From an uncultured Candidatus Saccharibacteria bacterium (GTDB taxonomy: Bacteria > Patescibacteriota > WWE3 > UBA101185 > UBA10185): 64,000 nt of DNA. Each line of letters opens with the position of its first letter. Within the stretch, counting starts at the first letter, position 1. The stretch spans positions 127,286-191,285 of the forward strand of contig CAYLVW010000002.1 of the NCBI GenBank assembly GCA_964387275.1, written 5' to 3'. The translations under genes were made by a program, and so were the position numbers. Shown here in pieces: positions 31,348 through 46,684 of the stretch. The notes beneath the pieces are model-generated. The model searched no databases. It was given only the letters and a program-made list of their open reading frames with translations, and had not been told where the DNA came from.

Positions 31348-32194
31348 TTTTATCCAAGCAAGTTTTACGCACAGCTTTTTCTAATTCGGAAATTTTTTCT
31401 GCTAAGTATTCTAATTCTTCAAGGGTGATTTCGTAATCGTGTCTATATCTCGCATCAACATACGCTCTAACTAATTTATCAAAAACAACTCTATCTTCTT
31501 GAGACTTTACTCTGAAGATATTTTCTAAGCCTTTTATTTCTTGAATTACTAAAGATCTTAGCTTTTCTAAGTTGTGGGTTTTTGGTTTGTAGCCTGTAAA
31601 TACCAGCAAAGTAGCAACATACAGTGTTTCTGCAACTTGATGTAGATGAAAAGCCGCATTACTAAATTCTTTATCTTCAATGTTATGGTTGAAATCTTTT
31701 AAAAAGCTTTGCGATTTTTTGAACCAGAAATCAAAATCTCTTTTAGCATTTGCAGAAACCTCGGAAGCTGTGAGCTTTTTTGGCTCTGTTAACTTGTACT
31801 CGCCTGAGTCATATAACAAAAGTCCTTCGTTTTTTATATCAATATAGAAATAGTTTCCTTCCTTGAGCTTTTCATTTACAAAGTGGATAGTGTCTATTAC
31901 CAAACTGACCGGAGTTTTTATAGTTAGGGAGGTTTTAATTTTTTGCTCTATATCGTTCCACAGACCAAAATTCTTACTAATTTTTTCTCCTTTAACTACA
32001 ACTAATATATCGTAATCACTAATGTATTCATAAGTAATGTGACCTTCTTTGTACCTGTCAGAAACCCAATCACCTCTAGCATAGCTGCCGAAAAGTAATA
32101 TCAGTCCTACATCTGCAGAATCTCTAATTATATTAGTTATAAGCTTTAGTTCATCTTGTTTTTCTTTTGGCAAATATATGAGTTCTGTTTTCAT
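31325..32194 (-). CDS. Fused minimal nucleotidyltransferase (MNT) plus HEPN-domain protein (kanamycin-nucleotidyltransferase-like architecture)
   Basis: N-terminal LILLFGSYARGDW...DYDILVVV (GS...D.D NTase motif). C-terminal helical domain with FHLHQVAETL...PKTHNLEKL (HEPN-like THxL motif). Confidence 0.65.
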   Translation of the reverse strand: MKTELIYLPKEKQDELKLITNIIRDSADVGLILLFGSYARGDWVSDRYKEGHITYEYISDYDILVVVKGEKISKNFGLWNDIEQKIKTSLTIKTPVSLVIDTIHFVNEKLKEGNYFYIDIKNEGLLLYDSGEYKLTEPKKLTASEVSANAKRDFDFWFKKSQSFLKDFNHNIEDKEFSNAAFHLHQVAETLYVATLLVFTGYKPKTHNLEKLRSLVIQEIKGLENIFRVKSQEDRVVFDKLVRAYVDARYRHDYEITLEELEYLAEKISELEKAVRKTCLDKITSLDSK

Positions 32195-33554: not shown

Positions 33555-33915
33555 ATTACAGAAAATTATTAATATGTGTTTAGAGTTAAGTTCTTTATCT
33601 AAGGAAGAAAAAGCCGATCTATGTTACGAGTTGCATAACCATATATTATCCTCAGCTATATTCTCCTTAGAAAGCAGCTTGAGTTCTACAGAGCGGGAAG
33701 AGCTCGCCATCTTACTGTCGTCTGATATTTCACCAGAATCCATGGTATCAAAATTGAACGCTTTGTTTAGCAAATCTATAGCTTCAGAAAAACTGTTAGG
33801 TACATTGATACTAGAATATGAAAAGGCTGCTAAAGACTTACTATCTGTTACTTACAAAATACTGCCTTTAAAGGCCCAAGACGAAGTTTCCCATTTGGTT
33901 GAGAGTTGGTTTTGA
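33538..33915 (+). CDS. Hypothetical protein
   Basis: 125-aa ORF overlapping neighbours by 17 nt on each side. Confidence 0.35.
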   Translation: MQYVVRLQKIINMCLELSSLSKEEKADLCYELHNHILSSAIFSLESSLSSTEREELAILLSSDISPESMVSKLNALFSKSIASEKLLGTLILEYEKAAKDLLSVTYKILPLKAQDEVSHLVESWF

Positions 33916-35056
33916 TAAGCACTCTGTTTATGTGTATATTATCTTTATGCCCATAAAAACTAAAAAAATATTGAATTCTGAACTTAGTAAGTCCTTAGTT
34001 TTATATTCGATTCATATACCCATATTACTTTTATTATTAGCATTCGTTGGATCTTTTACGCTTGCTCAATATTCTTCAGAAGACTCACTGGTTGGTCAGG
34101 TTTTAGGTAAAGATAGTGATGATAACGACGACGAAGAAGATAAAGATGAAGATGAAGACAGGGATAGAGAAGACTCTGATGATAATGAAGACGAAAAGGA
34201 CTCTGATGAGGATCGTGGTTCCAATAGCAACTCAGGGTCTGGTAGTTCGAGTAATTCCTCAGTCAAACCCGCAGTTAAAAATAATGAAGTAAAAACAGAG
34301 GAAAGGGTGGAGAATACAGATGGAACGTACTCTATTATTGAGACTAAAGAGAAAGATGGTGAGGCAGAGGTTGAGATAATAACATATAACCAGAATGGAG
34401 ATAAATTACGAGTTGAGAAATATGAGAATAAAGAAGGAGAAGAAGAAGCCCGGGTTTCTGTTTATGATGGATTAGGCAATAAGATTAGTGATTTTAGATT
34501 AGAAACTGAAGATGGTAAGGAGCTTGAGCTAAGGCTTAAAGAAGGGGAGACTGAGCTATCGAGAGTGAGATTTGATGTTGAAAAACAAGAGCTTTTAGTA
34601 AAAACTAAGGAGTCCAGTGGTTCTGATGGTTCAAATAGTAGTAGTGATTTAAGAATAAGGTTATTAGGAAACGACTTTGTTTTAACTAGGTCTGGTATTA
34701 ACGCTCTTTCTAGATTTCCCCTTGTTGTAGATGATGCAACCGGAGAGATTGTTGTTCAAACCCCTGTTGGAGAAGTTAAGCTGGGCGCTATGCCAGATTC
34801 TATAGTTGAGAAAGCAAAGGCATCTAGTGGTGTTGATGATGTTTTAGATCTTGAACTCCAAACAACCTCGGAATCTACCTCTAGTTCGTCCTCATCTTTA
34901 GAGTTTAAACTAACTGGCACAAAAACTGAGAAACTTTTAGGATTGTTTAATTTACAAATACCTACGACACTAATATATGATGCTAATACAGGCGGGTTTA
35001 TTCGTTCAGAGGAACCAACCTTTGTAACCAAGATATTGGACTTGTTTAGTTTCTAA
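33899..35056 (+). CDS. Hypothetical membrane-anchored protein with a highly acidic D/E-rich low-complexity region and Ser-rich tracts
   Basis: 385 aa; N-terminal TM; DSDDNDDEEDKDEDEDRDREDSDDNEDEKDSDEDRGSNSNSGSGSSSNSS. Confidence 0.45.
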   Translation: MRVGFDKHSVYVYIIFMPIKTKKILNSELSKSLVLYSIHIPILLLLLAFVGSFTLAQYSSEDSLVGQVLGKDSDDNDDEEDKDEDEDRDREDSDDNEDEKDSDEDRGSNSNSGSGSSSNSSVKPAVKNNEVKTEERVENTDGTYSIIETKEKDGEAEVEIITYNQNGDKLRVEKYENKEGEEEARVSVYDGLGNKISDFRLETEDGKELELRLKEGETELSRVRFDVEKQELLVKTKESSGSDGSNSSSDLRIRLLGNDFVLTRSGINALSRFPLVVDDATGEIVVQTPVGEVKLGAMPDSIVEKAKASSGVDDVLDLELQTTSESTSSSSSSLEFKLTGTKTEKLLGLFNLQIPTTLIYDANTGGFIRSEEPTFVTKILDLFSF

Positions 35057-35062
35057 ATAAAA

Positions 35063-35100: not shown

Positions 35101-35346
35101 TTATATTCCTCGACCTCTTCTTAGCATCATAACAATAACCAAAACAACAAGTACAATTACTCCAATTATAGTTGCAGGACCTGTAATCATAGATAAACTT
35201 CCCAGAAAATTACTCAACATACTCTGAAAGTTAACTCTCATAAGATTAGGGCCAAGTAAGCTTAATACTACAACCACAGAAATCAAAATAAGGACCAATA
35301 TGAGGATATATTCTAATAGACCCTGACCTCTTTCTCTTTTGTTCAC
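35101..35346 (-). CDS. Flp/class-III-signal-peptide pilin-like small protein
   Basis: N-terminus MNKRERGQGLLEYILILVLILI fits the G-x4-EY prepilin processing motif followed by a hydrophobic helix; 81 aa. Confidence 0.45.
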   Translation of the reverse strand: MNKRERGQGLLEYILILVLILISVVVVLSLLGPNLMRVNFQSMLSNFLGSLSMITGPATIIGVIVLVVLVIVMMLRRGRGI

Positions 35347-35552
35347 GCTTGACCAATACCCCGGTTACTATTAGCAGGTCGCAACTTATAGTAGACGGGT
35401 TTATTTTCTTGCAGAACACGCCCTGTAACAATGTAAATCACATTCTTTATTTGAATTTCGTCTCGTTCTACAGGCTCTACCGGAAGATTAATCATACCTT
35501 TCTCTATGGTATCTCCGTAGGCATCCACAATAATATATCCAAATTTTGTCAT
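35343..35552 (-). CDS. Hypothetical small protein
   Basis: 69-aa ORF overlapping the pilin-like gene by 4 nt. Confidence 0.3.
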   Translation of the reverse strand: MTKFGYIIVDAYGDTIEKGMINLPVEPVERDEIQIKNVIYIVTGRVLQENKPVYYKLRPANSNRGIGQA

Positions 35553-35665
35553 ATTTTCTCCTTGAGAGGTTTATACACCAAAAGATCTTCAGAAGTCAAC
35601 CTATAGGATTTGATATGAAAATGCCGATTGAGAAACTTAAAGTTTTCCAATCGGCAGGCTTTTGC

Positions 35666-35923
35666 CTAACGCTCTCTAATACTAATCCCAACCCAAAGCA
35701 GGAAAAACAAAAGAATAAAGTTTCTGGTCATCCCGGCAAGCCAGTACCCATTAGCCACTTCCCAAGACAAATAGTGTTGGGTAGTGAAGAAGTTAACCCA
35801 GGTAAATTGAGCAGTAGCAACCCATGGATTAAACAACAGATCAACGTAAGCTGCTACTGTTGCTAAGATACTAACGAGGACAGATACTATTAAAGCTTTA
35901 ATTGCATTGGATTTGATTCCCAT
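35666..35923 (-). CDS. Hypothetical small membrane protein (2 TM)
   Basis: 85-aa ORF with two hydrophobic helices. Confidence 0.3.
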   Translation of the reverse strand: MGIKSNAIKALIVSVLVSILATVAAYVDLLFNPWVATAQFTWVNFFTTQHYLSWEVANGYWLAGMTRNFILLFFLLWVGISIRER

Positions 35924-36009
35924 CTTTTACAGCCTCTTTCTCCAGGTTTTGTTTCCTTTTGGGCGTATGATACGAGCTTTTTTGTTGTTACGCAATCTAG
36001 GAGATATTA

Positions 36010-36558
36010 CTATACTAAGAGTATTCCACGAAATCCTCGCGCAGCATAATAGGAGGATGCTCCATTGTGGTATACAAAAATACTGTTGTATCTACGATCT
36101 GCAAACAAAGCCCCTCCGAGATCTCTTATAGTTTTAGGAGTGGCTATCCAACTTGATGTTTTAGTGTCAAACTCTCCTAGTGTCTGCAGATGTCTGTATT
36201 GAGACTCTGTAAGAATCTCAATACCTATTGTGCCTGCTACTTCCAGGGCGCTGCCTGAAGGTTTTGCTTCTTTTCTGTCGTCTAGTGATTTTTGGTCGTA
36301 ACATAAGCTTCTTCTACCACTAGGGCTTTCAGAAGAGCAATCACAGTAGATAAACTTCTTTTTTTCTTGATCCCAACCTATCACATCTGGTTCACCTCCA
36401 GTTTCTTCCATTTTTATTAATATTTCTATAGAGTGTTTATTACCCTCTAAGGCCTTAAGTATGTCTAGCCATTTTATACTTTTGTGCCTGTCTACATTTT
36501 TTTCAAAACGTTTTTGTAGTATCTCTATTTGTTTTTCTATCTGTGATTTATTAAGCAT
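36010..36558 (-). CDS. Conserved hypothetical protein, DUF4256-like
   Basis: 182 aa. The motif block GGEPDVIGWD...FIYCDCSSESPSGRRSLCYD...SWIATPKTIRDLGGALF...YHNGASSYYAARGFRG resembles a conserved domain of unknown function, recalled from memory. Confidence 0.35.
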   Translation of the reverse strand: MLNKSQIEKQIEILQKRFEKNVDRHKSIKWLDILKALEGNKHSIEILIKMEETGGEPDVIGWDQEKKKFIYCDCSSESPSGRRSLCYDQKSLDDRKEAKPSGSALEVAGTIGIEILTESQYRHLQTLGEFDTKTSSWIATPKTIRDLGGALFADRRYNSIFVYHNGASSYYAARGFRGILLV

Positions 36559-36656
36559 ACGGAGATTATATAAGATTTATTACCAAATAAAAAAAATCTC
36601 ACAGTAGTTTCAGGAAGTTTTGACTTCTCAGAACCTGACTGTGAGAACCATATTTT

Positions 36657-37031
36657 TTACGACGCCATTTGTTTCATAAGATTAAGAAGAAAATGAGCGG
36701 CTACAACCCCCGCAATTACGCCAAACGGTGTTAGCATTACCGTAATTATCGAAATACTGATAAAATCGATAAAGCTATAATTTTTCGTATAAGCCTCCAT
36801 AAACGCCGGATCCTCTCTACGCAGTAATTGTTCAACCCTATCTTCTTCCACTCTATCGTCAAGATCCACCTTAGCAAATACCCTTGCTCGCAGTAACTGG
36901 TATTTATTACTCATGTTGGCCCAGAAATAGTATCTATAGATTGGAACTAAAGTTAGACCTACAGTCCAAGCCATAAGAAATCCCAAAAAAGCCATAAGAG
37001 CATAGATAATAGTTTCAATATGTTCGATCAT
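36657..37031 (-). CDS. Hypothetical membrane protein (2-3 TM)
   Basis: 124-aa ORF; hydrophobic N- and C-termini with a charged middle. Confidence 0.35.
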   Translation of the reverse strand: MIEHIETIIYALMAFLGFLMAWTVGLTLVPIYRYYFWANMSNKYQLLRARVFAKVDLDDRVEEDRVEQLLRREDPAFMEAYTKNYSFIDFISISIITVMLTPFGVIAGVVAAHFLLNLMKQMAS

Positions 37032-37049
37032 CTCTTTCTCCCTGTTTTT

Positions 37050-37451
37050 CTAAGCTTTTTTGTATAGCATTGTCACTGCTACATGGTATCCTGCAGCAGT
37101 AGCTTTTCTTTCACGTTTTAGATCATCAGCATCCTCAGGAGATTTAATAATCTCAAAAGCCACCACTTGACTTAATAGCTCTTCAGGTATTTGGGCAATT
37201 ACTTCTGCTATTGATGGCTTAAAGAGGCCATAGAAGCCGAATGTGTGGTACGTAGTTATAGATTGTAGCTCAGCAATTCCCTCAACAGCTTCATTAGTAG
37301 CTGTTGGGTCCCATATATATGAGACATTTCTAGGATCCACAGATCTAATATAGCGTTTTCCTAGGTCTGGAAAGGTTACAATAGGTCTGATTCTAGCGCA
37401 TAGATCAGCCAACTTCCTATTTGAGATAGCAGGAATCCAACTTTTTCCCAT
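37050..37451 (-). CDS. Hypothetical protein
   Basis: 133-aa ORF, 18 nt upstream of the next gene. Confidence 0.35.
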   Translation of the reverse strand: MGKSWIPAISNRKLADLCARIRPIVTFPDLGKRYIRSVDPRNVSYIWDPTATNEAVEGIAELQSITTYHTFGFYGLFKPSIAEVIAQIPEELLSQVVAFEIIKSPEDADDLKRERKATAAGYHVAVTMLYKKA

Positions 37452-37590
37452 CTTGTTCCTCCTCCTAAAGACTTGCTATAGGACTATATAGTATTTACGC
37501 TGTAAATTCAACCTGCCTCAGAAAAGTACCTATTGCGTTCGGCTGGGTGCGTTTTAGTACTATATTTGTGACTATTGTTCTGTAGTGGCT

Positions 37591-37950
37591 TTATATTAAA
37601 CCGGTAAAAAGTAAAATAAGTGCACACAGTGTGACTATTGCAAATACACCTACAGTTCTTCCGAAAAGACTAAGAGCCTCTTTCTTTTTGCCCTCAATAA
37701 ATAATTGAAGCGGTTGATAGAAGAACAAAAAAGCCATAACCGATACTGAAAGGGTAAGTACTGATAAGAAAACTATTGGAGCGAAAAAGGTGTCTGGTTT
37801 GTTTCTAAGTGGTGCTGTAGCAAAGCTCATTGTTGAGACAACGAGAACTATGTAAGCCGAGGCGGAGACAGCATTTATTATAGGGTTTTTAGACATACTC
37901 TTATTGTACCAGAGTGTTTTTGTGTTTGATTTTTGGTAGGATTTGGCCAC
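37591..37950 (-). CDS. Hypothetical membrane protein (3 TM)
   Basis: 119-aa hydrophobic ORF. Confidence 0.35.
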   Translation of the reverse strand: MAKSYQKSNTKTLWYNKSMSKNPIINAVSASAYIVLVVSTMSFATAPLRNKPDTFFAPIVFLSVLTLSVSVMAFLFFYQPLQLFIEGKKKEALSLFGRTVGVFAIVTLCALILLFTGLI

Positions 37951-38122
37951 ACGTTCTTGCCTACTGGCAATATGCGTGACTTCGGATTGTCACAACCGCG
38001 GTTTTATCTTTTGAATACCCAAGTAATATAAAAATACCCGCAATTCTTGCGGACTTACAAAGATTTTTATGGCTCTACATAGCAGAAGATGTTAGAAAGT
38101 GTTTTGTTTTACAGTAAGGATT

Positions 38123-38485
38123 TTAAAGCTTTGATAGTTCTTTTATCACGTCACTCACAAGAATATAAGACATTGATACAGCTAGAGCTGCTGTAACATA
38201 GGTTAACAGTTGTCTAACTTTTCCTCTAATAAATTTTGGCAGTAAATTTTGATATTTAAGTGTCCACAAGTTTTGCTGAATAAAATTATATAGAAAAAAC
38301 CAAGAGATAAAATTAACAAGACCTAAGTATCGGTTGGTAGTTTTGGTTGTAATGAACTCTAAACTGCCGAGTATCAATAACCACTCCATGTACTCAAACC
38401 ACACCTTTGCATATTTGCCATATTTGAAATATTCCTTAGCCTCAGTTTGCCAAGAATATTCTGAAGTATCTTTTATCTTTTGCAC
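38123..38485 (-). CDS. Hypothetical membrane protein (2-3 TM)
   Basis: 120-aa ORF, 62 nt downstream of the KAP NTPase gene on the same strand. Confidence 0.35.
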   Translation of the reverse strand: MQKIKDTSEYSWQTEAKEYFKYGKYAKVWFEYMEWLLILGSLEFITTKTTNRYLGLVNFISWFFLYNFIQQNLWTLKYQNLLPKFIRGKVRQLLTYVTAALAVSMSYILVSDVIKELSKL

Positions 38486-38546
38486 GTTTTAATTATAACT
38501 TAGTAAATTGAGCTCAGGACGGTGAATACTCAAGTATTCGTTACAG

Positions 38547-41474
38547 TTAGCTCTCCGTTATCTCTTCAGGTTGGTTTGTTAAAACTCTAATTTGCGATTC
38601 ATTGAATAATGATGATGCTTTGTCAGTATATTTTTCTATAACATCGGCACCAATTCCTGATTCTTTTAGGCTTAATAAATGTTGATAAAATCTCTCAACT
38701 AGTTGTGGATCATCTGCTCCCTTAGTTTTATGGGACATTTCTAGTAATTTCAACTTATGCTCTCCTGATATCTGTTCTTTTTTATCATAAAAGCTAGTCA
38801 GTATTTGTTTGTTATTATTAAATTTATAGTTTCTATCCTCAGCAATAATTATGGCGTTATCTAAGTGATTAGAACTTATAAGCCTTTCTATAATGATGTC
38901 TTTAATGGCTTCATCAAAATGTTCCTTCATGAGATTGTAGATTTCCAAAGACCTTATCGAGGCACTCAAAACATTTTCACTGTTTTTTGTAACGACTTCT
39001 TTTCTCTCTTCCTCATCGAATAAAGCATAGCCTGTTGCATAGTCTGCATCAGAAGCAAAATTAGTAAATATGGATGCCTCTAATTCGTTTGCTCTTGAAT
39101 TATGCGGATAGAGAGATATTAGTCTTGCTAATCGGTAGATATCTTTTTTTTCATTCCAAACACCTGCTTGTTTATAAAATGTGCCTATTGTTAAGGTTAA
39201 GTTTTCCATTTGCGGTTGTAGTACCACATCTAAAGTTGGGACAATCCCTTTAAAGTTCTTAAGTATCTCATATGCAAATACGATCAACAGTTTCCTTTGC
39301 TCTCTCATAGGGTTGCTAGATTCTGTAGAAAAGATTTCATCAATCTTCCTAATAAATGTTTCAATAGATTTTTTATCAAAAATCTCTAAGAACTTTTTGA
39401 TGATTTGTATCTTATTTTCGAGTAAGGATATATCATCTATGTCGGTGTTTTTAATCCCTGCAATGAATTTAATCAATGTGTCCTCGAGTATAAACTCTCT
39501 CCTATCGGAATTATCTGCAAAGATTTCTAAGTACTCAGTTTGATAGTAAGCATTATTCAGTAAGTTCCTGATTTCACTTAAATATAGTTTAAAATAATCT
39601 TTGTTTGTGGAAATATATTGGAATATGTCTACAGCATTATCTTTCGTTATAGTAGGTTCCTTATCAGGTTCTTTTGCTCTGAGTATGTCAACATATTTTG
39701 CTGCTAAAAGGTTGTTTTGGTTTGGATTAATATTATTTTTTATTGTATCGACCGTTGGTTTGATTCTAAAGTTAGGATATGTGGCTAGATTATCTAGAGC
39801 CTTAATTATGGCGTGGTAAAGCTCATTAGCTAAACGATTGTTAACATTAACAGTTTCATCTCTGTAAAAAATTTCAATACAGCACGAACTTACAGGTTCA
39901 TATCGAGTCTTTTCACCCGCTGTTCTGTTTTGCTTAACATATTCGGCAGCCAATTCAAGGAAAATGTCCAAATTCTCCTCTTTTACAAAAGATTTGAATA
40001 ACTTCTCAGCACTTTCAACATCTCTATCTTGTGCAAAGGTTATAAATTGATCCCATCCATTTAGTCTTTTTTCTTCTGCAGATTGCTTAAACGTAATAAA
40101 CAATACTAGGTTTGAGCCATACGGAACTATAGACTCAGTATCTACAAGAAACTTTTCGCCTCTTTCATTAATTATTCCGTTATCATTTTTTGCATCTTCA
40201 ACAAAACTATTCCATGAGGTGGCTTCATATAATGCTTTCTCTTTTAACTTTGCATAAGTTGCAGGGAACTTCTCTTTGATAACTAACAGTTTAGCAATGA
40301 AAGCAATATTATTTTGATCTGCGATAAAGTTAAGGTCTTCAATATTGCCTTTTGCTATTCTGCTTTGCACAAGTAGTAGTTCTGCAATTAAGTTGTTTAT
40401 AAACTGTTTTATTTCCCTAGGGCTATTTCTGTAGGAGCTTGTAATAACTGATACTAGTTGAGAGTTGTTTTGAAGTAGTGGGAATTTTGAATTCTCAATT
40501 TGTTTTGTAACAAAATGGTCAAATTCCAAACTGTATGGTTTAGGAATTCTCAAAGTCAAATTAAAGAATTTTTTCAGATACTCGTTTGCATAGTCGTTTT
40601 GTTTTGTAGAATCTTTGTTATTTCCAAGGTAAACCTGTTCTATGTGTTCCTTTATAGCCTCTTCATCACAAGGTATTAGAAATACACAGTTATTTTCTCC
40701 TAAAAAAGTTTTTATCGTTGTAAGAAATGCTGACGCTTTGTGGTGAGCAGTTCTGTCTAGGTTGTCTAGTATAAATAATATCTTCTTATTTCGTAGCCTT
40801 TTATCTGAAATCAATTTTTTGAATTCCTTTTCGAATTCATCGGGCAATGATAGTTTGTCTTTTGTTAGAGTAATTTCATCCACTACCAAAACTTTATGTG
40901 GTAAGTCAATTAATATTGGTTTGAGTAAATGTAACTCTAGTACAGATAGTGCCCCCGAAATTAGTGTTATTAGTCCCCAATTATCAGCATTTTTAAAAAA
41001 GTAATTAAAAATTAATATTACAATTACTAGAGTTAGAACAAAAAATGGTGTGAGTAAGTATAGGCTTCTTACTAACTCATGTGAACGGAACTTGATCCCG
41101 ATATCCTCTTTTTTCTCGATTGAATAGGCAAATGCTTTACTAAGTTCTTTGGCTTTTTTTTCTCCCAAAAGTTCAGTAGCCGCTGTTAGTAAAAATTGTC
41201 TTCTTAAGGAGTCATTCTCATACTTCCATACGTCAAAGTACACGACTTTTATATCTGAATTCCTTAGCTTATCCTCGATAAGCTTGGCTATTATTGTTTT
41301 GCCTGTACCCCATTTACTAAATAATCCTATGGTAAATGGAGGCTTTGCTGAAGATACTATTTTCACTAATGTATCTGCTACTTCCTCATGCCCAAAATCT
41401 ATATCTGTTAATGAAGGATCATCGGGTAATAGTTCAAAGTCTATTGTATTCTCATTGCTGTTGGATTTTTTCAT
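38547..41474 (-). CDS. KAP-family P-loop NTPase with TM helices inserted in the NTPase domain, plus a ~700-aa C-terminal helical extension
   Basis: Walker A GLFSKWGTGKT; KAP-signature YFDVWKYEND; two hydrophobic helices (LYLLTPFFVLTLVIVILIF..., LITLISGALSVL) between Walker A and B; Walker B ILFILDNLDR followed by a conserved Cys-containing segment. Confidence 0.8.
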   Translation of the reverse strand: MKKSNSNENTIDFELLPDDPSLTDIDFGHEEVADTLVKIVSSAKPPFTIGLFSKWGTGKTIIAKLIEDKLRNSDIKVVYFDVWKYENDSLRRQFLLTAATELLGEKKAKELSKAFAYSIEKKEDIGIKFRSHELVRSLYLLTPFFVLTLVIVILIFNYFFKNADNWGLITLISGALSVLELHLLKPILIDLPHKVLVVDEITLTKDKLSLPDEFEKEFKKLISDKRLRNKKILFILDNLDRTAHHKASAFLTTIKTFLGENNCVFLIPCDEEAIKEHIEQVYLGNNKDSTKQNDYANEYLKKFFNLTLRIPKPYSLEFDHFVTKQIENSKFPLLQNNSQLVSVITSSYRNSPREIKQFINNLIAELLLVQSRIAKGNIEDLNFIADQNNIAFIAKLLVIKEKFPATYAKLKEKALYEATSWNSFVEDAKNDNGIINERGEKFLVDTESIVPYGSNLVLFITFKQSAEEKRLNGWDQFITFAQDRDVESAEKLFKSFVKEENLDIFLELAAEYVKQNRTAGEKTRYEPVSSCCIEIFYRDETVNVNNRLANELYHAIIKALDNLATYPNFRIKPTVDTIKNNINPNQNNLLAAKYVDILRAKEPDKEPTITKDNAVDIFQYISTNKDYFKLYLSEIRNLLNNAYYQTEYLEIFADNSDRREFILEDTLIKFIAGIKNTDIDDISLLENKIQIIKKFLEIFDKKSIETFIRKIDEIFSTESSNPMREQRKLLIVFAYEILKNFKGIVPTLDVVLQPQMENLTLTIGTFYKQAGVWNEKKDIYRLARLISLYPHNSRANELEASIFTNFASDADYATGYALFDEEERKEVVTKNSENVLSASIRSLEIYNLMKEHFDEAIKDIIIERLISSNHLDNAIIIAEDRNYKFNNNKQILTSFYDKKEQISGEHKLKLLEMSHKTKGADDPQLVERFYQHLLSLKESGIGADVIEKYTDKASSLFNESQIRVLTNQPEEITES

Positions 41475-41567
41475 ATTAATATTAATTTCTATTCATACTA
41501 ACCGATATTATAACTCCGTTAGGTATTTTTTACTTATAAATGGCAGTTTTGGCAGGTTTACGTCTGT

Positions 41568-41984
41568 CTATAGTAATGAGGACAGTCTTCTTAGATCCTT
41601 AAGGCTTTCACAAAAAGCTCCATAGCGTTTTTCGAGCTTTGGATCGTCTTCAATAATGCTAGAAATTTCTGATGCTAATCTATCTCGCCATTTCTTTAAT
41701 TCATTCCAATCTTTCGTATCGAAATGATCTGCAACTCTCCAATCAGTAGAATTCCCAAACATATTTAGAAGAAAGTTAAAACTTCTTTCAGCAGTACGCA
41801 ATTCGGCTAACTGCTTTGCATCCAAGTGTTTTTGACTAGTTATTTCTTCTAACAAATCATCTAGAAGTTCAATATAATTAAGCAAAAATTGTTTGTATGC
41901 TATTGGGTTTTTATACATTCTAAATTCATTATAGTACAAGCATATCTGCTGTCTATCTAGGCTATAATGTAAGTATGTCAACAA
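41568..41984 (-). CDS. Hypothetical protein upstream of the KAP NTPase gene
   Basis: 138-aa ORF, 93 nt upstream of the KAP gene; diverges from the terminase-small-like gene. Confidence 0.35.
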   Translation of the reverse strand: MLTYLHYSLDRQQICLYYNEFRMYKNPIAYKQFLLNYIELLDDLLEEITSQKHLDAKQLAELRTAERSFNFLLNMFGNSTDWRVADHFDTKDWNELKKWRDRLASEISSIIEDDPKLEKRYGAFCESLKDLRRLSSLL

Positions 41985-42424
41985 TAAGACAAAGGAAAGC
42001 CATTCAAAAATTATCTGAAAACCTACGAAATGTAGATAATAAACCTATTTCTATGGGAAAAATTTTACGAGAGTCAGGTTATTCAGAGGCAGTATCAAAG
42101 AAACCGAAGCTAGTTACAGAAAGCTTAGGGTGGAAAGACCTCATAGAGTCCTACCTTCCTGACGAAAAACTGTTACAAAGCCTTGTAGAGATGCTAAACA
42201 TGCCTTCTATTACTACTGTCCGTAACGACAAAGGTAAAGTGATTAGAGAAGTCACTGAAACAAATGGGTCAATCAAGGCTAGAGGGTTGGATATGATTTT
42301 GAAAGTAAAAGGTAAGTATGTAGCGGAAAAGGTAATAACAGAAGATCCTTATGCAGACATGAGTGACTCTGAAATAGAGGCTAAGATCAACAGATTGCAT
42401 CAGGAACGCAACTCATTTAATTAG
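41975..42424 (+). CDS. Phage terminase small-subunit-like HTH protein
   Basis: N-terminus RQRKAIQKLSENLRNVDNKPISMGKILRESGYSEAVSKKP follows the terminase-small pattern (...kq..f...y.......a...AGYS..tA...). Confidence 0.35.
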   Translation: MSTIRQRKAIQKLSENLRNVDNKPISMGKILRESGYSEAVSKKPKLVTESLGWKDLIESYLPDEKLLQSLVEMLNMPSITTVRNDKGKVIREVTETNGSIKARGLDMILKVKGKYVAEKVITEDPYADMSDSEIEAKINRLHQERNSFN

Positions 42425-42964
42425 GTTATAGTTCTTGTACACATTTTCCCAATAGCCTGAAAGTTTATTTAGAAACATGGAAACTATGTCTGTGGCAATT
42501 GGATTTATAAAAAATGGCTTATCCTTTGTTCCCTTTATCAGTATTTTATCAATGTTTTTACCTAGCCATTGATTGAGAAGTATTATTGCAACTCCCTCGA
42601 GTCCTTTTTGGCGGTTACCACCGTTTTCATATGCTTCCAAGTAATCTATAACTTCTTTTACTGCATAATTCTCAGTACTCTCGGTTCTTAGACCACTCAT
42701 TATATGAAGGGCTAGTCTTTTACTTTGCTCCTGAGGAAAAAAGCTTTCTACTGAGGCTATTCCTAAAGCAATAAGAGCAAAGCTTAAGTTTAAAGCACAA
42801 AGGTTATCATCAAGGAAAACAAAGTTGTTGTTGTAAAAATTATTTTGAAAGTGTTTCTTTATTTCTAGCCATGCTTTGTCACTTCCTTTTACACAATCTA
42901 ATACAAAAGAAGCGGACGCTACTTTTTCATCTAGATTTTTCTTAGATACCAAAAAATTAAGCAT
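42413..42964 (-). CDS. Hypothetical protein
   Basis: 183-aa ORF. Confidence 0.35.
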   Translation of the reverse strand: MLNFLVSKKNLDEKVASASFVLDCVKGSDKAWLEIKKHFQNNFYNNNFVFLDDNLCALNLSFALIALGIASVESFFPQEQSKRLALHIMSGLRTESTENYAVKEVIDYLEAYENGGNRQKGLEGVAIILLNQWLGKNIDKILIKGTKDKPFFINPIATDIVSMFLNKLSGYWENVYKNYNLIK

Positions 42965-43192
42965 ATTTACATTTCCATAGTTAGGGGATTAGCAAAACAA
43001 TAAGAGCTCCCCACTAGTCTGAACCCTTTCGGGCTCACATAATCGTTTCCGACTATGACCTGATCAAGTAACTAAATGGAGAGCTTCCATTTCTTGATCA
43101 GGTTTTATCGCCATGCCTTAGACGAATCTAAAGTTTAGGCAACATTAAGTTGTGTGCTTATTTTACTACAGAATGCTTTAGAATAAAGAAGT

Positions 43193-43846
43193 ATGAAGGA
43201 TAGATATGGAAAAATGATGAAAATAGTATATACGCCTGATTTCAAGAAATGGCTTGATAAATGGAAAGCTTTTGTATCTAGTAAAAACATTCCTAGCAAA
43301 AAAGATTTACCTAACAAGTGCGAAAGTGAGTTATTAACTTTGCTTAAATCTCACAATATCGGCTATTCATGGAAAGACCCGCTGATAAATTCCCTGTTTC
43401 TTGAATTACTTGATTTACCGTTGGATGATGGTATTCACATAGAAGTAGGCGGTACGGCGATTACAGAAGTGTCTTTAACAGCTAAAACTTTTGTGGTTGA
43501 TGAGGGTAGAAAATTGGAAGGTGTGCGTATTGTTATTACTAAGGATATATCCCCTCATGAACTTAGTAGTTTCATTAAAAAATACCAAACGTTGTTACAT
43601 GGACTTTATAAGCACTTAGGATTACCTGCTTCTGTGAAAGAGGGTTATGATGTGAACATCGTTAATGCCATAGTGACTATGCGGGATAAAAAGAAAATGA
43701 AATTCAAAGATATTGCTACGTTTCTATACGACGCATATTCAGAGCAGGAAAAACCCAAACAATCCCTCGAAAGATTTAATGAAACTAATGTTCAGAAAAT
43801 ATACAGCGATTTTAAGAAGTCCCTACCAAAAACCAACAAAAAGTGA
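43193..43846 (+). CDS. Hypothetical protein
   Basis: 217-aa ORF. Confidence 0.4.
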   Translation: MKDRYGKMMKIVYTPDFKKWLDKWKAFVSSKNIPSKKDLPNKCESELLTLLKSHNIGYSWKDPLINSLFLELLDLPLDDGIHIEVGGTAITEVSLTAKTFVVDEGRKLEGVRIVITKDISPHELSSFIKKYQTLLHGLYKHLGLPASVKEGYDVNIVNAIVTMRDKKKMKFKDIATFLYDAYSEQEKPKQSLERFNETNVQKIYSDFKKSLPKTNKK

Positions 43847-43898
43847 ACTGCTTTTTGTTGTGTAGTTAACAACATCTTGCACATAACATTGCATCAAT

Positions 43899-44162
43899 AT
43901 GAAAGATGCAATGGAAATCACACAGAAAAATATTCCCGTTTCAGACTTAGGTTTAGTAGCTGCCCTGTCCTTGTCATTCCAATATGAAGCTTATAGGCAA
44001 CCAAACGACGCAAAAGTTTATTTCCTATTTGAAAATGTACTCTCGGTAAGGAAAGCTATCGAGGACTATTGGGAAGGAAATCTTATAGTTAGTGCTAGGG
44101 CTTATTCGGAACAGCTTAAAAACACTAAATCTAAGATTTATGGTGGAGCATGGAGAAACTAA
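43899..44162 (+). CDS. Hypothetical small protein
   Basis: 87-aa ORF. Confidence 0.3.
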   Translation: MKDAMEITQKNIPVSDLGLVAALSLSFQYEAYRQPNDAKVYFLFENVLSVRKAIEDYWEGNLIVSARAYSEQLKNTKSKIYGGAWRN

Positions 44163-44294
44163 GCAAAAATGCAATAGTTTCATATAGATCCATATATCAA
44201 AAAAAGTATGGTGTGTTACTACCTTTTGAAGTAGCGAGAACACAAGCTGAAAATTTATTAACCTTTCTATTTCTTAAAGCCAAGTTGAATGTAA

Positions 44295-44768
44295 ATGAAT
44301 ATGTACGAGAACCTAAAAACACCCAATAACATTAAAGAATACCCATTTACACCTATACCGCATGTGATTTTGGATGTACTTATAGCAGATAAGAGGTTTG
44401 ATAAAAATTGCCAAAAGGTCTTATTACTTATAATTCGGCTGACGTACGGTATTGACCTCAAAAAAAAGAGAAGGGGTAGGTGGGCAGATATACGTAAAAG
44501 CCAATTTAGAGCCTGTGGTATTTCCTCAACGCATATAGATCCAATTTTAGAAAAACTTCTCGCTATGGAGGTGATTAGAAAAGAACCGCCAAATTATTAT
44601 TCGATAAATGTAGATACCTTTGAAAGTTCTTTAGAGGGCTATCTGCTGTCAGATTTGTTGTGTCTGCATATTAGTCAACCGAAAGCAACTGCGGATACAT
44701 CTAGTGAAAGGCTTATAAACTTGAGTTCCCAAAATGGTATCTATTTAGAGAAGTCAGATGTGGGATAA
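44295..44768 (+). CDS. Phage replication-organiser-like protein (lambda RepO N-terminal-like winged helix)
   Basis: KVLLLIIRLTYGIDLKKKRRGRWADIRKSQFRACGISSTHIDPILEKLLAMEVIRKE parallels the Phage_rep_O N-terminal pattern (vLlaIirkTyG....w..is.sq.ae.tGls...v.ra...L...gli). Confidence 0.45.
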   Translation: MNMYENLKTPNNIKEYPFTPIPHVILDVLIADKRFDKNCQKVLLLIIRLTYGIDLKKKRRGRWADIRKSQFRACGISSTHIDPILEKLLAMEVIRKEPPNYYSINVDTFESSLEGYLLSDLLCLHISQPKATADTSSERLINLSSQNGIYLEKSDVG

Positions 44769-44907
44769 ATGTAATATTGTCAGTCAGAAATAGGTGTCGA
44801 TCCTGTTACTAAAGAAAGAAATAAATAAAAAAATAAATAAATCAAAAAAAAGTGGAAACAGTCCAACAATATTTGAACTTTTGTATTCTTTAGTATTTAA
44901 TTAATCT

Positions 44908-44985
44908 GATAACCACAATACATTAAAGTCAGGAATGACCGTTCTGTCATGCCTTTAATGGTGTGGTTATCAACAGAACGGTCAT
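44908..44985. repeat. Nested inverted repeats directly upstream of the serine recombinase start
   Basis: gataaccaca (44908-44917) / tgtggttatc (44962-44971); cattaaag / ctttaatg; aatgaccgttctg (44934-44946) / cagaacggtcatt (44973-44985). Confidence 0.6.
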
Positions 44986-46624
44986 TTTTATGCAAAGATC
45001 TAACAACAAGTATTTCTTATATGTGCGAAAGTCGTCAGAGTCCGAAGATAAACAAGTTCTTTCTATCGATTCTCAAATAAATGAACTAACAGAATTAGCT
45101 AGAAGACTTGGTTTGGATATTGTTGAAATCTTTAAGGAAACCAAGTCAGCCAAAGCCCCCGGAAGACCCGTATTTAATGAAATGATAGAAAGACTTAAAA
45201 GAGAGCATGTAGCAGGGATTCTATGTTGGAAAGTGGATAGGTTAGCGCGAAATCCTGTAGATGGAGGAACAATCATTTGGGCTATTAAGGAAGATGGTAT
45301 TTCTATAGTCTCATCATCTCAAACCTATACCCCCGACTCTGATACAAGCCTTTTGATGTATGTAGAGTTTGGCATGGCTCAAAAGTATGTCGATGATTTA
45401 TCTAAAAATGTCAAAAGAGGATTGAAGATGAAACTAGAACTTGGATGGTATCCTTTTGTCGCTCCCCAAGGCTATCTTAACACTCCCGATAGGCAAAAAG
45501 GATACAAAATTATAGTTAATGATTCTGAACGCTTTCACTTGGTAAGAAAGATGTGGGATTTAATTCTCACGGGGAGTTATACAGTGCCTCAAATACTTTT
45601 TATCGCAAACAACGAGTGGGGGTATAGAAGCATCAAGCGAAGGAGGAGTGGCGGAAATCCAATTTCTAGAAGCTGTCTTTACGAAGTTTTTACTAACCCT
45701 TTCTATTATGGTGAATTTGAAGTGAATGGAACTTTTTACAAAGGTAGTCACAGTGCAATGATAAGTTATGAGGAGTTTGAAAAGGTTCAAGTGCTCTTGG
45801 GACGTAAGGGAAAACCACGTCCGCAAAAGCACCTTTCGGCTTTTACGGGGTTTTTAAGATGCAGTGAATGTAACTGTTTTGTAACAGCAACTCACAAAGC
45901 TAAATTTTATGAGAAGACCAAAAATTTAGCTCACTACGATTACTACCATTGCACAAGAAAGAACAAATCTGTGAAATGCACTCAACCAACTGTAAAAGAG
46001 TCTGATATGGATAACCAAATGTTTGAATTACTTATGAGTGTCAGGGTTGACCCTGCATTCAAAGATTGGGCACTTACATACCTCTCAGAAATATTCAAAT
46101 ATGAAAATAAGAATAATGAGCAAGTACATGAAAACTTATATAAAGAGGAAAAAGCCATCAAATTTAGGTTAAATACTCTGTTTGAAATGCGTTTGAATGG
46201 AGAGGTTACGGAAGATGAATACAAAGAAAAGAAAGTCGAACTAGAGGCGACTCTCAAGTTTTGTAGGGAGAAAATAGGTGATTCTAACCATCAATTTGAC
46301 TCTTGGTTAAAGAAAGTAGAGGAAGCATTTAATACTGCTGAAAGAATACAAAAGGTGGTCGACGATAGTGGTAATTTGAGTCTGTCAAAAACAAACCATA
46401 CAAAGCTTTTAGAAATCAAAGAACTAATCCAACGAACAGGCTCGAACTTCTTCTTAAACTATGGGAAAGTGCAGTATGAACTGAAAAAACCCTTTTATGT
46501 ATTCAAAGATGTTTCAGATGGAAAGTATACTGATACAAGTCGGCTAGAACCTTTAGAATATGCTGATATGGTAATGAAAAGTGGACTTGAAAAACCTGAA
46601 AGTCTTTCATGGCTCCTCCGGTAG
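44963..46624 (+). CDS. Large serine recombinase (resolvase catalytic domain, recombinase domain and zinc-ribbon domain); probable true start at the ATG at 44990
   Basis: YVRKSSESEDKQ (catalytic Ser region), ...ILCWKVDRLARN, Cys cluster CSECNC...YYHCTRK, coiled-coil C-terminus; 553 aa. Confidence 0.85.
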   Translation: MVINRTVIFMQRSNNKYFLYVRKSSESEDKQVLSIDSQINELTELARRLGLDIVEIFKETKSAKAPGRPVFNEMIERLKREHVAGILCWKVDRLARNPVDGGTIIWAIKEDGISIVSSSQTYTPDSDTSLLMYVEFGMAQKYVDDLSKNVKRGLKMKLELGWYPFVAPQGYLNTPDRQKGYKIIVNDSERFHLVRKMWDLILTGSYTVPQILFIANNEWGYRSIKRRRSGGNPISRSCLYEVFTNPFYYGEFEVNGTFYKGSHSAMISYEEFEKVQVLLGRKGKPRPQKHLSAFTGFLRCSECNCFVTATHKAKFYEKTKNLAHYDYYHCTRKNKSVKCTQPTVKESDMDNQMFELLMSVRVDPAFKDWALTYLSEIFKYENKNNEQVHENLYKEEKAIKFRLNTLFEMRLNGEVTEDEYKEKKVELEATLKFCREKIGDSNHQFDSWLKKVEEAFNTAERIQKVVDDSGNLSLSKTNHTKLLEIKELIQRTGSNFFLNYGKVQYELKKPFYVFKDVSDGKYTDTSRLEPLEYADMVMKSGLEKPESLSWLLR

Positions 46625-46684
46625 GATTCGAACCTACAACCTCGAAGTTAACAGCTTCTTGCTCTACCATTGAGCTACAGAGGA
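46610..46684 (-). tRNA. tRNA-Asn (anticodon GUU)
   Basis: Reverse complement tcctctgtagctcaatggtagagcaagaagctgttaacttcgaggttgtaggttcgaatcctaccggaggagcca. Acceptor 7 bp (one G-U), D-arm gctc/gagc, anticodon loop cuGUUaa, T-arm gtagg-ttcgaat-cctac, encoded CCA. Confidence 0.8.

What the first reader, a model, noticed from the sequence alone, without database searches (positions are those of the whole stretch)
35101..41984. KAP-family P-loop NTPase heading a minus-strand string of small membrane proteins in a mobile-looking region: candidate uncharacterised defence/abortive-infection-type module
Seen in sequence:
- A 975-aa protein has all KAP NTPase hallmarks: Walker A GLFSKWGTGKT, the YFDVWKYEND signature, two TM helices inserted inside the NTPase domain, and Walker B ILFILDNLDR.
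- It is followed on the same strand by 120-, 119-, 133-, 124- and 182-aa genes (the first, second and fourth are predicted TM proteins; the 133- and 182-aa genes are not), then a DUF4256-like gene and pilin-like/small ORFs.
- It is flanked by phage-like genes and a serine recombinase.

Established knowledge:
- KAP NTPases (Aravind et al.) are sporadically distributed, often horizontally transferred, and functionally uncharacterised in prokaryotes.
- NTPase-plus-membrane-effector modules are a recurring architecture of anti-phage systems.

Inference: this may be a novel NTPase-triggered membrane-effector defence or exclusion system. No experimental characterisation of this arrangement is known to me.
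Basis: partly seen in the sequence, partly recalled or inferred. Interest (0 to 1): 0.8.

Follow-up and report, generated by a model that had tools for sequence, protein, structure and literature searches.

The report
Stand-alone membrane KAP NTPase on integrative element
The 975-residue protein is a genuine membrane-anchored KAP-family NTPase, most likely a single-gene anti-phage protein carried on a small integrated mobile element, while the small membrane genes behind it are ordinary chromosomal neighbours and not part of a new multi-gene system.

Summary
The 975-aa protein (38547-41474, minus) passes Pfam KAP_NTPase (E 2.8e-31). It has two transmembrane helices between Walker A and Walker B, followed by a confidently modelled all-alpha solenoid of about 500 aa.

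The proposed "NTPase plus string of small membrane effectors" module does not hold:
- None of the small genes has a homologue near any of 84 loci encoding KAP relatives.
- A congener carries s119-s133-s124-DUF4256-s85-s69-s81 collinear with housekeeping genes and no KAP gene.
- Other relatives carry the 120-aa gene next to tRNA-Asn without KAP.

KAP is instead the outermost cargo gene of an ~8.1-kb element (~38526-46605). The element also carries a large serine recombinase and a RepO-like gene, and it lies between tRNA-Asn and the 120-aa gene.

KAP relatives sit in restriction-modification islands; in 10 of 31 loci an RM or RM-type gene lies directly upstream on the same strand. Others lie beside large serine recombinases.

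Stand-alone KAP/YobI-type transmembrane NTPases (Tmn, EF_KAP) are already validated defence proteins. This is therefore a distant new member of a known kind, from candidate-phyla-radiation bacteria. Its function is inferred, not tested.

The parts
38526..46605 (.). Integrated element of about 8.1 kb (approximate limits), lying between tRNA-Asn and the 120-aa gene
   Evidence: Similarity to relatives L085/L086 stops about 5 nt past the tRNA-Asn 3' end. It resumes about 35-40 nt upstream of the 120-aa gene start. Those relatives have a single 215-219-aa gene in this interval.
38547..41474 (-). 975-aa KAP-family P-loop NTPase, the outermost cargo gene of the element
41295..41318 (-). Walker A motif, S53-KWGTGK59-T60
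   Evidence: W55, G56, G58 and K59 are invariant in the 27-sequence family alignment. Position 53 is Gly in at least 90% of relatives but Ser here.
40890..41084 (-). Transmembrane helical hairpin (residues 131-195) inserted between Walker A and Walker B
   Evidence: Hydropathy. AF2 helices 131-160 and 167-195, flanked by strands 118-129 and 196-206. Two transmembrane segments are predicted in 21 of 27 family members.
40752..40778 (-). Walker B motif, LFILDNLDR (residues 233-241)
   Evidence: D237, N238, D240 and R241 are invariant.
38577..40109 (-). C-terminal all-alpha solenoid (residues ~456-966), the putative sensor arm
   Evidence: All-helical in the AF2 model, mostly pLDDT above 90. Foldseek hits to importin and HEAT-repeat proteins. 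Only 48 representatives among 1.84 billion proteins match it; the long ones match at the same C-terminal position as in full-length family members, the rest are shorter sequences.
41568..41984 (-). 138-aa orphan ORF upstream of KAP on the same strand, part of the element
   Evidence: No Pfam, PHROG, PADLOC or NCBIfam hit. No homologue in the 84 loci with KAP relatives. A promoter-like site at 41955-41928 matches 11 of 12 positions.
41975..43846 (.). Three orphan element ORFs: 149 aa (+), 183 aa (-) and 217 aa (+)
   Evidence: No family hits. Absent from the loci with KAP relatives.
43899..44162 (+). DUF5659 protein, 87 aa
   Evidence: PF18903 at E 5.7e-6.
44295..44768 (+). Replication-initiator-like protein (RepO / DnaD-like N-terminal domain)
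   Evidence: PF04492 at E 2.5e-9. phrog_16826 at E 3.7e-9.
44963..46624 (+). Large serine recombinase, 553 aa. Its last 15 nt overlap the tRNA-Asn 3' end.
   Evidence: Resolvase, Recombinase and Zn_ribbon_recom domains. phrog_95 integrase at E 9.4e-65.
46610..46684 (-). tRNA-Asn(GTT), which marks the insertion site
   Evidence: ARAGORN. The same tRNA sits at the syntenic place in L085-L088.
38123..38485 (-). 120-aa membrane protein. It is a conserved flank of the insertion site, not a KAP partner.
   Evidence: Homologues at 81% and 75% identity occur without KAP upstream.
38036..38054 (-). Terminator-like hairpin plus U-run after the 120-aa gene
   Evidence: Synteny with congener L091 ends at 37931.
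35101..37950 (-). Chromosomal backbone genes (119, 133, 124, 182 = DUF4256, 85, 69 and 81 aa). Not part of the KAP unit.
   Evidence: Collinear at 77-84% nucleotide identity with congener L091, which lacks KAP. The 133-aa family has at least 150 homologues, and the two distant members whose contexts were read sit among housekeeping genes.
36585..36646 (-). Intrinsic-terminator-like hairpin plus U8 after the 124-aa gene
   Evidence: Minimum free energy -22.8 kcal/mol, z -2.77.

Best explanation
The 975-aa gene encodes a self-contained, membrane-anchored KAP-family P-loop NTPase. It has a cytoplasmic NTPase core, a two-helix membrane hairpin inserted between Walker A and Walker B, and a long C-terminal alpha-solenoid arm.

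It is the distal cargo gene of an ~8.1-kb integrative element. The element is built around a large serine recombinase and a RepO-like gene, and it is inserted next to the 3' end of tRNA-Asn.

By analogy with Tmn and EF_KAP, the most likely role is single-gene anti-phage or anti-mobile-element immunity. In that model the variable solenoid binds an invader protein, which switches on NTP turnover in a membrane-embedded oligomer. The hairpin then perturbs ion or membrane homeostasis so that the infection stalls.

The small genes downstream (120, 119, 133, 124, DUF4256, 85, 69 and 81 aa) are unrelated chromosomal genes that lie beside the insertion site.

Shown here: family membership, architecture, the element and its limits, independence from the small genes, and defence or mobile neighbourhoods of relatives.

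Inferred only: the defence function, the trigger, oligomerisation and the membrane effect.
For: Identity and architecture:
- Pfam KAP_NTPase hit.
- Invariant Walker A and B residues and the PREIKQFIN motif across 27 relatives.
- A transmembrane hairpin conserved in the family.
- AF2 model with pLDDT 85 and an all-alpha C-terminal solenoid.

Defence context:
- PADLOC partial hits to PDC-S20 (1.5e-23), QatA (1.2e-21) and PifA (3.4e-8).
- Pfam families most frequent among 124 neighbours of 31 relatives: N6_Mtase 8, Eco57I 7, N6_N4_Mtase 5, ResIII 5, Resolvase/Recombinase 5, HSDR_N 3, Methylase_S 3, GmrSD_N 3.
- An RM or RM-type gene lies directly upstream on the same strand in 10 of 31 loci. One relative is embedded between hsdM and hsdS.
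- A homologue of the recombinase lies within 10 kb in about 9 loci and adjacent in 4.

Element:
- tRNA-Asn, recombinase and the synteny breaks.

Independence from the small genes:
-.

Precedent:
- Tmn is a self-contained transmembrane P-loop NTPase with a solenoid sensor arm and no conserved operon (PMC13001434).
- Stand-alone KAP NTPases fused to unknown C-terminal regions protect against phage and need Walker B and the C-terminal region (PMC13552941).
Against: - No experiment exists on this protein or on any relative above 33% identity.
- It does not hit the PADLOC Tmn model at E <= 0.1, and QatA scores 92 bits against a cutoff of 600. The analogy is therefore architectural, not a family assignment.
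- The first Walker A glycine is replaced by serine.
- No att repeats were found. The related genomes carry a different gene rather than an empty site, so the element limits are approximate.
- No terminator separates KAP from the 120-aa gene, so co-transcription is possible.
- Neighbourhood enrichment was not compared with a matched background.
Confidence: 0.65

Rival explanations
1. KAP and the following small membrane proteins (120, 119 and 124 aa, plus the 133-aa and DUF4256 genes) form one new NTPase-triggered membrane-effector defence system.
For: All genes are on the same strand. Three of the small products have predicted transmembrane helices. The region is mobile-looking.
Against: - Zero homologues of any small gene occur in the 84 loci with KAP relatives.
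- No analogous run of small transmembrane genes follows the relatives.
- Congener L091 keeps the 119-aa to 81-aa string without KAP, collinear with housekeeping genes.
- The two distant 133-aa family members whose contexts were read sit among housekeeping genes.
- Terminator-like hairpins and a GC step split the string.
- The small proteins have no PADLOC or PHROG hits.
Confidence: 0.03
2. A two-gene unit. The 120-aa membrane protein is a conserved partner, and exchangeable upstream genes (KAP here, a 219-aa gene or a third gene in relatives) are plugged in front of it at the tRNA-Asn hotspot.
For: In all three versions the upstream gene is co-directional and 28-61 bp away. There is no terminator between KAP and the 120-aa gene, whereas a hairpin plus U-run follows the 120-aa gene.
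Against: - Only three arrangements are known, so shared orientation could be chance.
- No KAP relative elsewhere has a 120-aa homologue.
- The 120-aa family is tiny, with 3 homologues in 5.8 billion proteins.
- The upstream genes are unrelated to each other.
- The simpler reading is that the 120-aa gene is the fixed flank of an insertion hotspot.
Confidence: 0.06
3. KAP serves the mobile element itself rather than protecting the host against phage. Possible roles are element maintenance, exclusion of competing elements, or control of a membrane-associated transfer complex.
For: - It sits at the edge of a recombinase element.
- One relative lies next to T4SS pilin and TrbC genes.
- In E. coli, tmn lies in the leading region of conjugative plasmids (10.1101/2022.08.21.504612).
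Against: - Many relatives lie in chromosomal RM operons with no recombinase homologue found within 10 kb.
- None of the other element genes co-occurs with the relatives; only the recombinase type recurs.
- Validated KAP and Tmn proteins act against phage (PMC13552941, PMC13001434).
Confidence: 0.15
4. A non-defence, housekeeping membrane-associated NTPase of candidate-phyla-radiation cells.
For: Function is untested, and the protein is intact with conserved motifs.
Against: - Distribution is patchy across CPR bacteria, Omnitrophota, archaea and Proteobacteria.
- It is absent from congeners.
- It sits on an inserted element, and neighbourhoods are variable and rich in RM genes.
Confidence: 0.04

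Closest known systems
[quoted passage not shown]
   Same: - A single self-contained gene.
- Two transmembrane helices between Walker A and Walker B.
- A long, variable C-terminal alpha-solenoid.
- No conserved operon partners.
- Carried on mobile elements and in defence islands.
   Different: - No hit to the PADLOC Tmn model at E <= 0.1; the best Pfam family is KAP_NTPase, not YobI.
- 975 aa against about 1270 aa for E. coli Tmn.
- The loop between the transmembrane helices is about 6 residues, against about 20 in Tmn.
- Hosts are CPR bacteria, Omnitrophota and archaea rather than Proteobacteria and Firmicutes.
- The decamer, the RIIB trigger and Mg2+ export are all untested here.
[quoted passage not shown]
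   Same: - A KAP NTPase domain with membrane helices plus a C-terminal region of no known domain.
- A single-gene unit.
- Genetic linkage to a serine recombinase.
   Different: - Those proteins were found next to small serine recombinases in Firmicutes and gut metagenomes, whereas here the recombinase is a large serine recombinase in a CPR genome.
- EF_KAP has a 322-aa C-terminal region, whereas here there is a ~500-aa solenoid.
QatA of QatABCD
   Same: KAP-type ATPase. PADLOC gives E 1.2e-21 and NCBIfam NF041923 gives E 2.9e-26, both over the Walker B region.
   Different: It scores 92 bits against an equivalog cutoff of 600. No Pfam family matched any of the element's other genes except DUF5659, Phage_rep_O and the recombinase domains, so no QatB, QatC or QatD neighbour was found. 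QatA lacks this C-terminal solenoid.
RdrA of RADAR (PDB 8fnt, 8fnu, 8hr8)
   Different: RdrA is soluble, forms heptameric rings and works with the deaminase RdrB. Here there is a transmembrane hairpin, and no family assignable to RdrB was found among the element's genes. The Foldseek TM-score is only about 0.25.
PifA (F plasmid) and PADLOC candidate PDC-S20
   Same: KAP-family relatives implicated in phage exclusion, with partial HMM hits (PifA 3.4e-8 over residues 27-117; PDC-S20 1.5e-23 over residues 200-436).
   Different: The hits cover only parts of the NTPase domain. The C-terminal half is unrelated.

Membership tests
KAP family P-loop NTPase (Pfam PF07693) | Profile match above the curated gathering score | tested here: met
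   109.3 bits against a cutoff of 20, E 2.8e-31, residues 31-362.
KAP family P-loop NTPase (Pfam PF07693) | Intact Walker A GK[ST] and Walker B acidic residues | tested here: met
   G58-K59-T60 and D237/D240 are present and invariant in the family. The first Walker A Gly is Ser here.
KAP family P-loop NTPase (Pfam PF07693) | Transmembrane helices inserted within the P-loop domain | tested here: met
   Two helices (131-160 and 167-195) lie between Walker A (53-60) and Walker B (233-241).
Tmn defence system | Match to the PADLOC Tmn / YobI-type NTPase profile | tested here: not met
   Tmn is not among the PADLOC hits at E <= 0.1. No YobI Pfam hit was found for this protein.
Tmn defence system | Single gene with a transmembrane hairpin in the NTPase and a C-terminal ARM/HEAT-like solenoid, without conserved operon partners | tested here: met
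   AF2 model, importin/HEAT matches and variable neighbourhoods.
Tmn defence system | Decameric membrane complex; phage-protein trigger; ATP turnover with Mg2+ export and plasmolysis | not testable with these tools
   Requires biochemistry, cryo-EM and infection assays.
QatABCD | QatA equivalog score | tested here: not met
   NF041923 scores 92.3 bits against a cutoff of 600.
QatABCD | Adjacent QatB, QatC (QueC-like) and QatD (TatD-like) genes | tested here: not met
   Pfam, NCBIfam and PADLOC scans of all neighbours found none.
RADAR (RdrAB) | RdrA-type ATPase with an adjacent RdrB adenosine deaminase | tested here: not met
   Structural similarity to RdrA only. No deaminase-type family appeared in the Pfam or PADLOC scans of the neighbouring genes.
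Large-serine-recombinase integrative element | Recombinase with Resolvase, Recombinase and Zn-ribbon domains at one end | tested here: met
   The gene ends inside the tRNA-Asn 3' end.
Large-serine-recombinase integrative element | Insertion relative to related genomes | tested here: met
   In L085-L088 tRNA-Asn and the 120-aa gene are about 0.9 kb apart with one unrelated gene between them. In the window they are 8.1 kb apart.
Large-serine-recombinase integrative element | Identifiable attL/attR sites or a true empty site | tested here: inconclusive
   No direct repeat or duplicated tRNA fragment was found. Serine recombinases need only a very short crossover core. No exact empty site was found.
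   0 of 84 loci. The small genes occur without KAP in L085-L088, L090 and L091.

The most novel reading that the evidence does not exclude
This clade is about 950-1100 aa long, has a transmembrane hairpin, and carries its own rare and fast-diverging solenoid. It is found mainly in CPR bacteria, Omnitrophota and archaea. It may be a distinct membrane sensor-effector family that is functionally coupled to restriction-modification operons. In 10 of 31 loci it lies directly downstream of an RM or RM-type gene on the same strand, and once it is embedded between hsdM and hsdS, as PrrC is. It could then act as a back-up that fires when restriction is evaded or inhibited, in cells with minimal genomes and few other known defences.
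Probability: 0.12. Interest if true: 0.6.

Novelty: new member of a known kind. Interest (0 to 1): 0.3.

Why it matters
If the inferred role is right, it extends the recently validated class of single-gene, membrane-embedded KAP/YobI-type NTPase defences to candidate-phyla-radiation bacteria and archaea. The immune repertoires of these organisms are poorly known. It also suggests that large serine recombinases and RM operons could serve as search markers for such genes.

The finding does not reveal a new multi-gene architecture. The main practical value is the correction: the small membrane genes should not be annotated or cloned as part of the system.

Tried and rejected
- **att sites.** Searches for direct or inverted repeats and for a duplicated tRNA-Asn 3' fragment found only chance-level repeats.
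- **Small downstream proteins.** PADLOC, PHROGs and NCBIfam gave nothing.
- **Other element ORFs and the 219-aa gene of L085.** PADLOC and PHROGs gave nothing useful.
- **Solved structures by sequence.** A family-profile search of PDB sequences gave no hit.
- **AlphaFold database fold search.** The library was unavailable.
- **Viral contigs.** Only 7 distant matches confined to the NTPase domain.
- **Phage genome collection.** No match.
- **Plasmid collection.** Only NTPase-domain matches at 21-28% identity, none full length.
- **Genes upstream of the 120-aa gene in L090 and L085.** Tested whether they are cryptic KAP relatives; no significant similarity.
- **Cluster look-up for organism names.** The window's contig carried no name.
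- **RADAR and Qat membership.** Considered and rejected because partner genes are absent and scores fall below cutoffs.

Full report
**1. Observation**

The 975-aa ORF at 38547-41474 (minus strand) matches Pfam KAP_NTPase PF07693 with E 2.8e-31, scoring 109 bits against a gathering score of 20. The three quoted motifs are present in the translation.

Hydropathy places two hydrophobic segments at about residues 133 and 166, between Walker A (53-60) and Walker B (233-241). The 120-, 119- and 124-aa products have predicted membrane helices. The 133- and 182-aa products have none.

Two details need correcting:
- The 182-aa gene is itself the DUF4256 protein (E 9.8e-81).
- The first glycine of the Walker A consensus, present in at least 90% of relatives, is serine here. 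The G-K-T core is intact.

**2. What the large protein looks like**

A 27-sequence alignment of full-length relatives (21-34% identity, 908-1112 aa) shows these invariant residues: W55, G56, G58, K59, D81, W83, K84, D237, N238, D240, R241, and a P352-R-x-I-K-Q-x-I-N360 motif.

AlphaFold2 with this alignment gives a mean pLDDT of 85. The model has three parts:
- an alpha/beta NTPase core;
- a helical hairpin (131-160 and 167-195) mounted on two strands (118-129 and 196-206), joined by a loop of about 6 residues;
- an all-helical solenoid from about residue 456 to 966, mostly above pLDDT 90.

Structure searches gave the following:

| Search | Best matches |
|---|---|
| Foldseek vs PDB | importin and HEAT-repeat proteins for the C-terminal half |
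| Family profile vs PDB sequences | no hit |

The C-terminal half on its own finds only 48 representatives (E <= 1e-3) among 1.84 billion proteins. The long ones match at about residues 435-995, the same C-terminal position as in full-length family members, and the rest are shorter sequences. The domain is therefore rare, fast-diverging and, as far as these matches show, specific to this family.

**3. Is there a module with the small genes?**

No, on four independent lines of evidence.

(a) tblastn of all eight downstream proteins and seven upstream element proteins was run against 84 loci (80 from one-genome-per-species contigs) that encode KAP relatives. It gave zero hits, except for the serine recombinase.

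(b) Gene maps of 33 such loci show no recurrent run of small transmembrane genes after the NTPase.

(c) The small genes occur without KAP:
- A congener at about 80% nucleotide identity (L091/L092) is collinear with window 37931 down to 25948. This span runs from the 119-aa gene through the 133-, 124-, DUF4256, 85-, 69- and 81-aa genes, on to the HEPN-NTase fusion, PfkB, transketolase and phosphoribosyltransferase genes.
- L091 has no homologue of the window's KAP, 120-aa or recombinase genes, and no KAP_NTPase family among the genes called upstream.
- The 133-aa protein belongs to an unannotated family with at least 150 homologues. The two distant members whose contexts were read sit beside housekeeping genes.

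(d) The 120-aa gene has homologues at 81% identity in L085-L088. The order there is DUF1189 gene, tRNA-Asn, an unrelated 215-219-aa gene, then the 120-aa gene, with no KAP. In L090 it is preceded by a third, unrelated gene.

Within the window the string is also broken physically:
- A hairpin plus U-run follows the 120-aa gene.
- A strong hairpin plus U8 follows the 124-aa gene (z -2.77).
- GC content steps from 0.32 to 0.37-0.40 between the 120-aa and 119-aa genes.

**4. What KAP belongs to**

tRNA-Asn(GTT) lies at 46610-46684. A 553-aa large serine recombinase (Resolvase, Recombinase and Zn-ribbon domains; PHROG integrase E 9.4e-65) ends 15 nt inside the tRNA's 3' end.

Alignments with L085/L086 show that similarity ends about 5 nt beyond the tRNA 3' end. 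It resumes about 35-40 nt upstream of the 120-aa gene. The interval of about 38526-46605 (8.1 kb) is therefore an insertion. In order it contains:
- the recombinase;
- a RepO/DnaD-like gene and a DUF5659 gene;
- five orphan ORFs;
- KAP at the far end, with its stop codon about 20 nt from the boundary.

No att repeats were found. This is not unexpected for a serine recombinase, but it leaves the limits approximate. The element has no phage structural genes, so "prophage" is not justified.

**5. Context of relatives**

Full-length relatives occur patchily in several CPR lineages, Omnitrophota, several archaeal groups, Atribacteria and some Proteobacteria.

The Pfam families most frequent among 124 neighbouring proteins (within three genes, 31 loci) were:

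| Pfam family | Members matching |
|---|---|
| N6_Mtase | 8 |
| Eco57I | 7 |
| N6_N4_Mtase | 5 |
| ResIII | 5 |
| MmeI_Mtase | 5 |
| Resolvase / Recombinase / Zn_ribbon_recom | 5 each |
| HSDR_N | 3 |
| Methylase_S | 3 |
| GmrSD_N | 3 |

In 10 of the 31 loci the gene directly upstream, on the same strand, is an RM or RM-type component:
- HsdR in L030 and L032;
- hsdM in L004, where the KAP gene lies between hsdM and hsdS;
- type IIG or type ISP enzymes in L010, L013, L017 and L022;
- GmrSD in L041;
- an SNF2 helicase in L009;
- DUF4391 in L072.

A homologue of the window's recombinase lies within 10 kb in about nine loci and is adjacent or nearly so in L007, L019, L029 and L044. The family is absent from the phage genome collection. 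It appears only as distant NTPase-domain matches in viral contigs and plasmids. No matched background was computed, so these enrichments are descriptive.

**6. Mechanism**

The following are shown here: KAP membership, the hairpin-plus-solenoid architecture, carriage on an integrative element, and defence or mobile neighbourhoods.

The rest is inferred from published systems:
- Tmn is a YobI-family P-loop NTPase with two transmembrane helices between the Walker motifs and an ARM/HEAT-like solenoid. It acts alone and forms a decameric membrane complex. It recognises phage T2 RIIB through its arms, raises ATP turnover and exports Mg2+, which causes plasmolysis (PMC13001434).
- Stand-alone KAP NTPases fused to C-terminal regions of unknown function protect Enterococcus from phages. 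They need both Walker B and the C-terminal region (PMC13552941).

I therefore propose that the solenoid is the sensor, the NTPase is the switch, and the membrane hairpin in an oligomer is the effector. My confidence in the whole statement is about 0.65. My confidence that the small genes are not part of the system is about 0.9.

**7. Comparison and membership**

| Family | Result |
|---|---|
| Pfam KAP_NTPase | member; all three defining features met |
| QatA | not a member: 92 bits against a cutoff of 600; no QatBCD genes |
| Tmn | not demonstrably a member: no PADLOC Tmn hit |
| RADAR | not a member: no deaminase-type partner found, and the protein is membrane-anchored |
| PifA, PDC-S20 | partial NTPase-domain hits only |

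It works like Tmn and EF_KAP in architecture and genomic behaviour, but it is not shown to belong to either family.

**8. Verdict**

The proposed multi-gene arrangement is an accident of insertion next to unrelated chromosomal genes.

What remains is a distant, uncharacterised member of a known class of single-gene membrane NTPase defences, in a CPR genome. The recurrent attachment to RM operons is worth a follow-up. Novelty: new member of a known kind. Interest: about 0.3.

Noticed in passing
window 37050-37451 (-): The 133-aa protein belongs to a well-conserved but unannotated family. It has at least 150 homologues, the listed ones at 38-60% identity apart from two near-identical relatives, in CPR lineages, Bacteroidota and Nitrospirota. 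The two distant members whose contexts were read lie next to housekeeping genes: PRTase, NUDIX, RNase Y and ClpP in one, glycolysis genes in the other.
   Followed up: partly
window 38486-46609; L085 5872-6768; L090 1-151: The interval between tRNA-Asn and the 120-aa gene is an insertion hotspot. The window has the 8.1-kb recombinase/KAP element there. L085-L088 have a single orphan gene of 215-219 aa. In L090, whose 1.4-kb contig ends before any tRNA, a third unrelated gene lies just upstream of the 120-aa gene.
   Followed up: partly
window 33899-35056 (+): A 385-aa protein with an N-terminal hydrophobic segment and a long Asp/Glu/Ser-rich low-complexity stretch. It is absent from the otherwise collinear congener L091, whose synteny skips window 33914-35058.
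   Followed up: no
window 31325-32194 (-): A fused nucleotidyltransferase plus HEPN protein of 289 aa (HEPN E 1.1e-15, Polbeta E 2e-6; PADLOC PDC-S09 E 2.1e-6). It is conserved at 90% identity in the congener. It looks like a single-chain MNT/HEPN toxin-antitoxin-like unit.
   Followed up: no
L004 7344-12038; L030, L032, L010, L013, L017, L022, L041: KAP relatives are often the gene immediately downstream of RM genes on the same strand. In L004 the relative lies between hsdM and hsdS, the position PrrC occupies in the prr locus.
   Followed up: partly
window 41316-41318 (codon for residue 53 of the KAP protein): The first Walker A glycine, present in at least 90% of the family, is serine in this protein. 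The effect on NTP binding is unknown.
   Followed up: no
L090 vs window 37276-38512: L090 matches the window at about 95-96% amino-acid identity across the 119- and 133-aa genes, but only 72-75% across the adjacent 120-aa gene. This suggests a recombination breakpoint near 38032, at the terminator-like hairpin.
   Followed up: no
window 35101-35346 (-): The 81-aa product has a weak match to the class III (archaeal/type IV pilin-like) signal peptide, E 0.0023 and below the curated cutoff.
   Followed up: no
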